Assembly: GCF_003334255.1 (NCBI RefSeq)
Contig: NZ_QOWU01000168.1
From: Escherichia coli
GTDB lineage: Bacteria; Pseudomonadota; Gammaproteobacteria; Enterobacterales; Enterobacteriaceae
Length of the DNA: 1,252 nucleotides
Direction: 5' to 3' (one strand)
Shown: positions 1-1,252 of the stretch, piece after piece
Layout: every line of letters starts with the position of its first letter
How positions within the stretch are numbered: the stretch's first letter is position 1
Notes under the pieces: model-generated
The model's database searches: none
The model's input: only the letters and a program-made list of their open reading frames with translations
What the model was told of the DNA's origin: nothing
Translations under genes and position numbers: made by a program

Positions 1-89
1 CACATGCTGAGGGTGCTGTCCGGGTGCAGCTCCGGGTCGGGCAGGCGGTTACCTGCCGGGTCTGTGGCATACGGGATATCAATGCCCAG
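1..89 (-). CDS. Start of a downstream orphan Rhs core fragment (no start codon; continues beyond window start). Likely a silent, promoterless rhs-CT cassette
   Basis: Composition jumps from AT-rich to about 66% GC (59 G+C in positions 1..90, counted by hand). Minus-strand translation of 89..1 is LGIDIPYATDPAGNRLPDPELHPDSTLSM(W), which contains a YD-repeat-like element (Y-x-x-D-x-x-G-x-R-L) and resembles Rhs core sequence from memory. The frame is continuous with the immunity stop codon (…TAA IKLIALIIICNLGIDIPY…) and has no ATG/GTG/TTG before Met at 5..3. Exact extent and expression status are uncertain. Confidence 0.5.
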   Translation of the reverse strand, partial: MGIDIPYATDPAGNRLPDPELHPDSTLSM

Positions 90-122
90 GTTACATATAA
101 TAATAAGAGCAATTAACTTAAT

Positions 123-449
123 TTATTTGTTTATAATGCGCTTACTTAATACAAACCATTGAATATACCCTCCTGACAGAAAATAAAGCCATATTATTAT
201 CGCCATAATATACTTACTATCAATCCTTACGCCAATAATGTCTGATACAGTCCCTATAAATATTAGAGCAATAAAGAATACTATGCCTGTTGGAAAACAT
301 ATTACCATCATTCCATAAGACATGAGACTAATTAACTCGCTCACATCACGAGTGGAGTCTAATAGTGAAAGTCTATGCATGGAAAAGAATAGTATTAAAA
401 GCGATAAAGCCAGCCATATAGCTCTGAATAAAAAAATAATATATTTCAT
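123..449 (-). CDS. Putative cognate immunity protein (RhsI-like): small integral membrane protein, 108 aa, about 3 predicted transmembrane segments
   Basis: ORF immediately downstream of the toxin on the same strand. Its ATG (449..447) overlaps the toxin TAA (451..449) by one base (TAATG). A GGAG Shine-Dalgarno sits 7 nt upstream. The translation [23 protein letters not shown]...MMVICFPTGIVFFIALIFIGTV...IMAIIIWLYFLSGGYIQWFVL has three hydrophobic stretches of about 20 residues each. AT-rich composition (about 30% GC in 121..180) matches the toxin tip. Immunity function is inferred from position, not from homology. Confidence 0.65.
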   Translation of the reverse strand: MKYIIFLFRAIWLALSLLILFFSMHRLSLLDSTRDVSELISLMSYGMMVICFPTGIVFFIALIFIGTVSDIIGVRIDSKYIMAIIIWLYFLSGGYIQWFVLSKRIINK

Positions 450-1252
450 TACATCACTCCGGTGAATACAAATCTAATAAAACGTCCAATGTTATTTCCG
501 GAGCACTTCATCTTACATGTTTCTAAAGAATCATTAGACCAGTCTTGGCAGTTTTTAAATAGCCCTAAATTTATAGGTGTGAATATATCAGGCAATACAG
601 AATAACGCGGCCTTACCTCTTTAAACTTCCCTTTTAAACAGTTCTCCACACAACTATTATCGGTTTCAACGAGGTCACAACGGCCAGCAGCTTCTTTTGT
701 ATCATTACTTGCTTTACCTGGCCCCCATAGACCATCTCCTTTTGATTCTCCCCGTTGGTCTTGGCCACCACAAGTATAGTCCCCTTTACCATCTGGGACA
801 CAAAGATATTGATGATAGAACGGATTCCCCCATATATCTGGACCGCTTCTTTCACCAGTTCCGCCCATTGAATGCAGTGGCTTAATGCATTTTAGTGTTT
901 CTAATCCTAATGGATCTATATTTGAGATCGGATTCAACGGATACTGATAAAAATTCCATCCCCCTTTCAGCCCAATCGGATCCTGAGTGATATATCGCCC
1001 CTGCAGCGGGTCATAATAGCGGTGGCGGTTGTAATACAGGCCGGACTCCTCATCATACTGCTGCCCCGGCAGGCGGATAAGCTGCTGCAGCTGATGCGGG
1101 TTCTCTTCATTCAGCAGGTTGCCCCATTCATCGTATTCTGCGCACCATTCTGTTGTCCCTTCCTTGCTGATAAGGGCCAGCGGCAGGCCGCGATGGTCGC
1201 AGTGGTACAGGTGGATTTTTCGCGCCGGCGTGTACACCGGGTCCATCTGGTT
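449..1252 (-). CDS. Rhs-family polymorphic toxin, C-terminal portion (5'-partial; ORF open to the window edge). Comprises the end of the conserved Rhs core plus a variable C-terminal toxin tip
   Basis: The minus-strand frame is open from 1252 (codons N-Q before Met at 1246..1244) to stop TAA at 451..449. The translation ...[43 protein letters not shown]...[45 protein letters not shown] matches, from memory, the conserved C-terminal end of enterobacterial Rhs cores, ending in the PxxxxDPxGL boundary motif. GC-rich codons at 960..1252 are typical of the Rhs core. The Met at 1246 is internal, not the true start. Confidence 0.9.
452..901 (-). other. Variable C-terminal toxin domain (Rhs-CT), about 150 aa, family not recognised; cysteine-rich and hydrophilic
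   Basis: Residues after DPLGL: [150 protein letters not shown]. There are 9 Cys, many Gly/Asp/Lys, and no hydrophobic segment. No HNH, Walker or other catalytic motif I can identify. Composition is AT-rich relative to the core. Confidence 0.7.
457..460 (-). promoter_or_regulatory. Shine-Dalgarno (GGAG) for the immunity ORF, embedded in the last codons of the toxin gene
   Basis: Minus-strand sequence TTCACCGGAGTGATGTAATG: GGAG (460..457), 7-nt spacer, then ATG (449..447). The stop and start overlap, consistent with translational coupling. Confidence 0.5.
902..916 (-). other. DPLGL motif (GAT CCA TTA GGA TTA on minus strand): Rhs core / C-terminal tip demarcation, putative autoproteolytic site
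   Basis: Reverse complement of 902..916 translates as D-P-L-G-L (aa 111-115 of the in-window ORF), preceded by [11 protein letters not shown]. By established knowledge of Rhs/YD-repeat proteins, the DPxGL motif marks where the variable toxin tip begins and is associated with C-terminal autoproteolysis. Confidence 0.8.

What the first reader, a model, noticed from the sequence alone, without database searches (positions are those of the whole stretch)
1..122. Orphan Rhs core fragment directly downstream of the immunity gene, in frame and without a start codon
Directly after the immunity stop (125..123) the sequence returns to GC-rich Rhs-core-like coding sequence (…DPAGNRLPDPELHPDSTLSM…) on the same strand, with no initiation codon. 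This is the signature of an orphan rhs-CT/immunity cassette. Such promoterless fragments can be recombined onto the main rhs gene through homology in the core, swapping the expressed toxin; this is established for Rhs loci in Salmonella and E. coli. The window therefore probably samples a multi-cassette toxin-switching locus, with a second toxin/immunity pair further along the minus strand beyond position 1.
Basis: partly seen in the sequence, partly recalled or inferred. Interest (0 to 1): 0.55.

Follow-up and report, generated by a model that had tools for sequence, protein, structure and literature searches.

The report
Known orphan Rhs toxin fragment (ybfO)

Summary
The window is the E. 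coli rhsC 3' end, ybfB, and the 5' end of ybfO, all on the minus strand. It is 100% identical to three complete genomes and 99.4% identical to K-12.

After the ybfB stop (125..123) comes a 45-nt AT-rich spacer (122..78). Window 77..1 then matches rhsC core nt 2695-2771 at 97.4%. In the genomes this homology runs for 1035 bp at 97.5%.

The fragment is in frame with the ybfB stop. It has no ATG, GTG or TTG until a conserved core Met at 5..3. RefSeq marks it as a pseudogene missing its N-terminus.

The same tip plus ybfC is attached to an intact full-length Rhs gene at the same kdp-ybfA locus in other strains, for example ETEC H10407. The module occurs in 3518 of 5426 genomes, and 2645 carry the ybfB-orphan junction.

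This fits published C-terminal displacement and orphan rhs-CT/rhsI models. Active switching at this locus was not shown. The direction of change could not be resolved.

The parts
914..1252 (-). 3' end of the rhsC core (RHS core / Rhs-associated core domain). This stretch is repeated at 96.5% identity in the downstream orphan.
   Evidence: NCBIfam NF041261 and TIGR03696 and Pfam PF03527 hits. blastn of window bases 1-339 (minus strand) against K-12 ybfO.
902..916 (-). DPLGL of the PxxxxDPxGL demarcation motif of RhsC (residues 111-115 of the window ORF). Core homology with the orphan ends at its first codon.
   Evidence: Translations. The homology end point (rhsC nt 3729) is.
449..901 (-). RhsC C-terminal tip, the presumed toxin: about 150 aa, cysteine-rich, 41% GC, with its stop at 451..449. 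No Pfam, NCBIfam or PDB sequence match.
123..449 (-). ybfB: 108 aa, a predicted membrane protein with 3-4 hydrophobic segments. Presumed cognate immunity gene. Its ATG overlaps the rhsC stop by one base.
   Evidence: Annotated 'protein YbfB' in all matching genomes. Hydropathy.
78..122 (-). AT-rich spacer (26.7% GC) between the ybfB stop and the start of core homology. It is the right-hand end of the low-GC rhsC-CT/ybfB module.
   Evidence: Alignment and composition. No terminator-like site on this strand and no Rfam match.
1..77 (-). 5' end of the orphan Rhs core fragment (K-12 ybfO, b0703). It is homologous to rhsC nt 2695-2771 and continues beyond position 1 for about 1.43 kb, ending in a distinct tip and ybfC.
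3..5 (-). In-frame ATG where the K-12 ybfO pseudogene feature begins. It is a conserved core methionine with no Shine-Dalgarno-like sequence upstream.

Best explanation
Window 1..77, together with the 45-nt spacer 78..122, is the 5' boundary of a displaced Rhs C-terminal tip. This is the orphan rhs-CT/rhsI module that K-12 calls ybfO-ybfC.

Shown:
- The fragment is a 5'-truncated copy of the last 1035 bp of the rhs core, joined to its own tip and a small downstream ORF.
- It has no canonical start codon at its 5' end.
- It lies directly behind rhsC-ybfB at the kdp-ybfA-rhs locus.
- The same tip plus ybfC is the attached, full-length allele at that locus in other strains.

Inferred:
- The ybfO tip was once the resident tip. 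A low-GC rhsC-CT/ybfB module then recombined into the core (C-terminal displacement) and pushed the old tip downstream. The duplicated core segment starting at nt 2695 marks the end of the incoming DNA.
- The orphan toxin part is silent as it stands. ybfC has its own ATG and a GAGG about 10 nt upstream, so it may still give immunity against strains that deploy this tip.
- The two direct repeats of 1035 bp at 97.5% identity are a better recombination substrate than the 522 bp at 95% that suffices in Salmonella. A RecA-dependent deletion, or recombination after duplication, could therefore re-attach the orphan tip to the main gene and switch the toxin.
For: - Identity and context.
- Homology extent and junction.
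- Lack of a start codon. RefSeq and PGAP flag the fragment as a pseudogene missing its N-terminus.
- Attached alleles at the same locus: a synthetic recombinant of 2672 nt matches strain A27 at 100% in one piece. ETEC H10407 has an intact 4200-nt Rhs CDS (1399 codons) with this tip, and ybfB is absent.
- Population counts: the tip/ybfC module is in 3518 of 5426 genomes and the ybfB-orphan junction is in 2645.
- Diversity: among the records listed, attached alleles span 96.2-100% identity and orphan alleles 98.8-100%. This fits the attached state being older.
- Composition: the low-GC module sits between high-GC core copies.
- ORF integrity: the orphan ORF is intact in all 5 orphan copies with this tip that were examined.
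- Literature: displacement model (PMC2935791); orphan rhs-CT/rhsI modules (PMC3150448); recombination-driven expression in Salmonella (PMC3967940); one C-terminal tip tabulated for the rhsC locus b0699-b0706 in K-12 and B (PMC3032704).
Against: - No direct evidence of switching at this locus.
- The SNP mosaic test could not tell ancestral attached alleles from deletion revertants, because core variants are shared among main, orphan and attached copies.
- All 2645 genomes share one junction. That points to one historical insertion rather than frequent turnover.
- The toxin and immunity activities of the YbfO tip and YbfC are untested, and neither has a recognisable domain.
- In one genome identical to the window the main rhsC has a 2.1-kb internal deletion, so re-attachment there would not give a working protein.
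- From my own knowledge, not tested here: K-12 lacks a type VI secretion system, so delivery is doubtful in that lineage.
Confidence: 0.85

Rival explanations
1. The fragment is an inert relic. It is a decaying pseudogene left over from one past insertion. It plays no further part in toxin switching or immunity and persists only because it has not yet been deleted.
For: - It is annotated as a pseudogene.
- One shared junction in 2645 genomes implies a single old event.
- Some lineages show decay: the orphan and ybfB are frameshifted in ST648, and the orphan is cut by ISAs1 in DETEC-S792.
- The main gene is broken in strain 23CRST029.
Against: - The 1506-nt ORF is intact with no indels in all 5 orphan copies with this tip, including one at 97.7% identity.
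- Differences between orphan alleles are mostly synonymous, with pN/pS about 0.1-0.25. These could have been imported by recombination from expressed copies.
- ybfC is intact in the K-12-like loci.
Confidence: 0.3
2. The orphan acts as an internally expressed toxin-antitoxin-like module. A promoter and a non-canonical start codon inside the retained core, near the demarcation motif, produce low levels of the tip inside the cell. YbfC neutralises it, as reported for the Salmonella orphan.
For: PMC7043789 reports internal promoters upstream of the PxxxxDPxGL region and a CTG start for the Salmonella main and orphan tips. It states that the P2 promoter also occurs upstream of Rhs toxins in E. coli. 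An intact orphan ORF is compatible with this.
Against: - Not tested here for this locus. Any such promoter would lie beyond window position 1.
- The consensus scan gave no promoter-like site in 1..122. The window as a whole had 5 sites against 3.8 expected.
- YbfC has an N-terminal signal-like hydrophobic segment. That suggests a periplasmic immunity protein, which fits poorly with a cytoplasmic toxin-antitoxin pair.
Confidence: 0.1
3. The fragment is a read-through or fusion product. Because it is in frame with ybfB, stop-codon read-through would yield a YbfB-Rhs fusion protein.
For: The fragment is in frame, with no stop between 122 and 1.
Against: - The stop is TAA.
- The in-frame relation has a 1-in-3 chance expectation.
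- No structure or motif is present in the spacer.
- No annotation in any genome joins the two.
Confidence: 0.01
4. The segment belongs to an unrelated plus-strand gene.
For: Plus-strand ORFs exist at 4..162 (52 aa) and 24..116 (30 aa).
Against: No genome annotates them. The minus-strand frame continues as an Rhs core fragment of more than 500 codons.
Confidence: 0.005

Closest known systems
E. coli K-12 ybfO (b0703) with ybfC, the C-terminal tip downstream of rhsC-ybfB
   Same: It is the same locus. The window is 99.4% identical to K-12 and has the same junction, frame and downstream genes. PMC3032704 Table 6 lists one C-terminal tip for this locus in K-12 and B.
   Different: There are 7 substitutions relative to K-12 over the window. 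The source strain is not K-12: three other genomes match at 100%.
Salmonella Typhimurium LT2 rhs-CT(orphan)/rhsI(orphan), STM0292 (Koskiniemi et al. 2014, PMC3967940)
   Same: It is a start-less core fragment plus tip plus immunity gene, lying directly behind the main rhs gene and its immunity gene. Direct-repeat core homology allows fusion to the main gene.
   Different: The homology here is longer and closer: 1035 bp at 97.5% against 522 bp at 95%. Recombination, toxicity and immunity have been demonstrated for Salmonella but not for this locus. The tips are unrelated.
Dissociated C-terminal tips created by C-terminal displacement (Jackson et al. 2009, PMC2935791)
   Same: A low-GC incoming tip is attached to the core, and the older tip is shunted downstream with a partial core. 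Core and tip are evolutionarily decoupled. The attached form of the displaced tip is present in other strains.
   Different: There is only one displaced tip in K-12-like genomes, not a long array. The circular intermediate that the model proposes was not observed here.
Orphan cdiA-CT/cdiI modules of contact-dependent inhibition loci (Poole et al. 2011, PMC3150448)
   Same: The logic is the same: a start-less toxin-tip fragment that retains some upstream conserved sequence, followed by an expressed immunity gene.
   Different: It belongs to a different toxin family. CdiA uses a VENN motif and two-partner secretion, whereas Rhs uses a YD-repeat shell and the DPxGL motif.

Membership tests
Orphan rhs-CT/rhsI module (displaced Rhs C-terminal tip) | [quoted passage not shown] | tested here: met
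   The order rhsC - ybfB - fragment - ybfC is seen in all examined genomes with this junction.
Orphan rhs-CT/rhsI module (displaced Rhs C-terminal tip) | Contains a 5'-truncated piece of the conserved core, homologous to the main gene | tested here: met
   1035 bp at 97.5% identity to rhsC nt 2695-3729. Window 77..1 is its first 77 nt.
Orphan rhs-CT/rhsI module (displaced Rhs C-terminal tip) | Lacks translation initiation signals at its 5' end | tested here: met
   No ATG, GTG or TTG in frame from 122 to 6. The ATG at 5..3 is a conserved core Met with no Shine-Dalgarno-like sequence upstream. Absence of translation was not measured.
Orphan rhs-CT/rhsI module (displaced Rhs C-terminal tip) | PxxxxDPxGL demarcation followed by a tip unrelated to the main gene's tip | tested here: met
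   The motif is present as a variant, PVQYIDSMGL (DSxGL instead of DPxGL). Nucleotide homology to rhsC stops at this motif, and about 150 unrelated residues follow.
Orphan rhs-CT/rhsI module (displaced Rhs C-terminal tip) | Followed by a small ORF with its own start codon (candidate immunity gene) | tested here: met
   ybfC is 189 aa. Its ATG overlaps the ybfO stop.
Orphan rhs-CT/rhsI module (displaced Rhs C-terminal tip) | [quoted passage not shown] | tested here: met
   Single-piece matches of 99.4-100% to a synthetic core-tip-ybfC construct. ETEC H10407 has an intact 4200-nt Rhs gene at the same locus without ybfB.
Orphan rhs-CT/rhsI module (displaced Rhs C-terminal tip) | The tip is toxic and is specifically neutralised by the downstream protein | not testable with these tools
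   No domain or structure match for either protein. Expression assays are needed.
Orphan rhs-CT/rhsI module (displaced Rhs C-terminal tip) | Can be recombined onto the main gene within a cell population | not testable with these tools
   The recombination substrate is present and natural attached alleles exist. The mosaic test was inconclusive.
Rhs / YD-repeat core protein | Sequence match to RHS core models | tested here: met
   For the ybfO translation: Pfam RHS PF03527 (E = 1.9e-14) and weak RHS_repeat hits. For its 3' part: NCBIfam NF041261 and TIGR03696. The 77 nt inside the window are too short to score alone and are assigned by nucleotide homology.
Rhs tip acting as a type II toxin-antitoxin-like module (Starsta et al. 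2020) | Internal promoter and start codon upstream of the demarcation motif that drive tip expression | not tested
   The relevant region lies outside the window, and the published P2 sequence was not retrieved. Only the paper's statement that P2 occurs in E. coli is available.

The most novel reading that the evidence does not exclude
The ybfO orphan may be kept intact by selection rather than being a fossil. About 49% of complete E. coli genomes hold this tip displaced behind ybfB. About 16% more (873 genomes) carry the tip without that junction, apparently mostly attached to a full-length Rhs. The orphan ORFs examined are intact, with mostly synonymous variation. Together these could reflect an ongoing balanced polymorphism. 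In that reading, displaced copies are repeatedly re-attached, or expressed internally as a toxin-antitoxin-like pair, and ybfC protects carriers against strains that deploy the tip.
Probability: 0.2. Interest if true: 0.35.

Novelty: already known. Interest (0 to 1): 0.1.

Why it matters
The finding matters little beyond correct annotation. It shows the window comes from the well-studied rhsC element of E. coli, and that the start-less GC-rich stretch is the catalogued ybfO tip rather than a new gene or signal.

The survey here adds a small quantitative point. The same tip is the expressed allele in roughly a sixth of complete E. coli genomes and a displaced orphan in about half. That makes this locus a convenient natural system for testing Rhs tip displacement and re-attachment in E. 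coli, where experimental proof is still lacking.

Tried and rejected
- **SNP mosaic test.** I scored the 28 sites that differ between the K-12 main and orphan core copies in five loci, to tell ancestral attached alleles from deletion revertants. Patterns such as OOMMOM occur in main, orphan and attached copies alike. The sites are therefore shared polymorphism or gene conversion, and the test is uninformative.
- **pN/pS between orphan and attached alleles**. Values are low (about 0.1-0.25), but the sample is small and variation may have been imported from expressed copies. I do not use it as proof of selection on the orphan.
- **Search for the donor of the rhsC-CT/ybfB module.** A degenerate pattern for the YbfB C-terminus found no hit in one genome per species of GTDB. 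The donor remains unknown.
- **Function of the tips.** Pfam, NCBIfam and PDB sequence searches of both tips found only the Rhs core parts. The immunity candidates YbfB and YbfC were scanned against NCBIfam only and matched no family.
- **A signal in the spacer.** There is no Rfam match and no terminator-like site on the coding strand, and the fold is not better than shuffled sequence (z = -1.4).
- **Plus-strand ORFs at 4..162 and 24..116.** Rejected as antisense artefacts.

Full report
**What is in the window**

On the minus strand the window holds three things.
- An open frame, 1246..449, whose first 115 residues match RHS core models and end in DPLGL. It continues into a cysteine-rich tip of about 150 residues.
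- A 108-codon ORF, 449..123, which overlaps the previous stop by one base.
- 122 further bases.

A megablast against 5426 complete E. coli genomes gives 100% identity over all 1252 bases in three genomes and 99.4% identity to K-12 MG1655. The features under the match are rhsC, ybfB and an 'RHS repeat-associated core domain-containing protein' flagged as incomplete and missing its N-terminus. In K-12 the third feature is the pseudogene ybfO (b0703), followed by ybfC.

**Checking the observation**

The stop of ybfB is TAA at 125..123. In the same frame the remaining bases read IKLIALIIICNLGIDIPYATDPAGNRLPDPELHPDSTLSM without a stop, while both other frames have stops.

GC content is 26.7% in 122..78 and 67.5% in 77..1, against 31% in ybfB.

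Window 77..1 aligns to rhsC nt 2695-2771 with 75 of 77 identities (E = 2e-33). Upstream of that point the two sequences are unrelated, apart from a weak resemblance over about 15 nt.

There is no ATG, GTG or TTG in frame from 122 to 6. The ATG at 5..3 is where the K-12 ybfO feature begins. It is a methionine conserved in the rhsC core itself, and it has no Shine-Dalgarno-like sequence upstream.

A 45-nt AT-rich spacer separates the ybfB stop from the core-like sequence. One in-frame ATG sits at the very edge of the window.

**What lies beyond position 1**

In K-12 and in the genomes identical to the window, the core homology runs for 1035 bp at 97.5% identity to rhsC nt 2695-3729. It stops at the demarcation motif. 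That motif is DPLGL in RhsC and the variant PVQYIDSMGL in the fragment. About 150 residues unrelated to the RhsC tip follow, and then ybfC (189 aa), whose ATG overlaps the fragment's stop.

Downstream of ybfC lie ISAs1/H-repeat remnants (ybfQ, ybfL, ybfD), so the K-12-like locus has two cassettes.

**Is the tip ever attached?**

I built a synthetic recombinant of 2672 nt. It consists of 600 nt of rhsC core found only upstream of nt 2695, then the orphan from its homology start through its tip, then ybfC.

It matches many genomes in a single piece: 100.0% in strain A27, 99.4-99.9% in at least 30 others listed. In A27 and in ETEC H10407 the match lies at the same kdpF-ybfA locus, and ybfB is absent. 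In H10407 the gene is an intact 4200-nt 'RHS element core protein' followed directly by ybfC.

Counting across genomes:
- The tip/ybfC module covers at least 80% of the query in 3518 of 5426 genomes.
- The ybfB-spacer-orphan junction does so in 2645 genomes.
- About 870 genomes therefore carry the tip without that junction. In the sampled rows, 9 of 29 are annotated as full-length core proteins, in rough agreement with that fraction.

Among the records listed, attached alleles are more diverse (96.2-100% identity to K-12) than orphan alleles (98.8-100%).

**How it most likely arose and works**

The anatomy is a low-GC CT/immunity module bounded on both sides by high-GC core copies. The downstream copy is truncated at one fixed point in all 2645 genomes, and the displaced tip is the attached allele elsewhere. 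This fits the C-terminal displacement model of Jackson et al. (PMC2935791) and the orphan rhs-CT/rhsI description of Poole et al. (PMC3150448).

PMC3032704 Table 6 already lists one C-terminal tip for locus b0699-b0706 in K-12 and B, and none in strain Crooks.

In Salmonella LT2, recombination across 522 bp of 95% identity fuses the orphan to the main gene and lets cells deploy the orphan toxin (PMC3967940). The substrate here is longer and more similar, so the same event is mechanistically plausible. It has not been shown for this locus.

I tried to decide whether attached alleles are ancestral or are deletion revertants, using the sites that distinguish the K-12 main and orphan cores. The variants are shared among main, orphan and attached copies in other strains, so the test is inconclusive.

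The orphan ORF is intact, without indels, in all five orphan copies with this tip that I examined. Differences among them are mostly synonymous. That could reflect selection, or import from expressed copies.

**Rival readings**

- *Inert relic.* This cannot be excluded. Decay is visible in some lineages: the orphan and ybfB are frameshifted in ST648, and the orphan is truncated by ISAs1 in DETEC-S792.
- *Internal expression as a toxin-antitoxin-like pair.* This has been reported for the Salmonella orphan (PMC7043789) and is untested here. The signal-like N-terminus of YbfC argues mildly against a cytoplasmic pair.
- *Read-through from ybfB, or a plus-strand gene.* Neither has support.

**Verdict**

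The feature is the already catalogued ybfO orphan tip of the rhsC element. It is ordinary, and interest is low.

Noticed in passing
L001:7714-9804 (strain 23CRST029, 100% identical to the window): The main rhsC gene has an internal deletion of about 2.1 kb. K-12 rhsC nt 1-1234 are joined to nt 3315-4194 across about 25 nt of overlap, so the gene is a pseudogene there. Only about 415 bp of homology to the orphan remain.
   Followed up: partly
L006:2557-4377 (strain ST648): The ybfB-orphan junction is the same, but the orphan core ends in a different tip. It is followed by 'RHS element protein dsORF-f3' instead of ybfC. Both ybfB and the orphan are frameshifted. This shows that tips behind this junction have themselves been exchanged.
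   Followed up: partly
L007:2558-5124 (strain DETEC-S792): The orphan core is cut after about 470-486 nt by an ISAs1 element annotated yhhI, followed by yhhJ. These genes fall in the b3481-b3485 interval that PMC3032704 Table 6 lists for rhsB. This suggests a rearrangement between the rhsC and rhsB loci.
   Followed up: no
L008:3481-4862, L009:3509-4565, L010:3481-5437: In a B-strain derivative (T7Express), O157:H7 and AR_0015, further immunity-like genes lie downstream of ybfC: an NTF2-fold immunity protein and a DUF6258 protein. The B-strain derivative also has an 87-nt RHS fragment there. The array is therefore longer in some lineages than in K-12.
   Followed up: no
L003:7160-7190 (K-12 ybfO): The demarcation motif of the ybfO tip reads PVQYIDSMGL, that is DSxGL rather than the canonical DPxGL. 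Whether self-cleavage still works with Ser in place of Pro is unknown.
   Followed up: no
window 449-901 (-) and 123-449 (-): The RhsC tip is cysteine-rich and has no Pfam, NCBIfam or PDB sequence match. YbfB is a small protein with 3-4 hydrophobic segments, and YbfC has a signal-like N-terminus. The presumed immunity proteins therefore look membrane or periplasmic, which hints that both toxins act on the cell envelope.
   Followed up: partly
L003:1584-2783 (K-12 rhsC N-terminus): The first 400 residues show DUF6531 (E = 5e-18). There is only a marginal PAAR-motif hit (E = 0.18) at residues 2-20. The delivery domain of this Rhs is therefore not clearly recognisable.
   Followed up: no
E. coli genome collection: There are 3646 places of the ybfO-tip/ybfC module in 3615 genomes, so about 31 genomes have two places. 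These could be IS-split copies, or the duplication-plus-recombination state described in Salmonella.
   Followed up: no
GTDB species representatives: A degenerate DNA pattern for the last 11 codons of ybfB plus its stop has no match in one genome per species across 100,044 species. The rhsC-CT/ybfB module therefore has no sampled donor outside E. coli at this stringency.
   Followed up: partly
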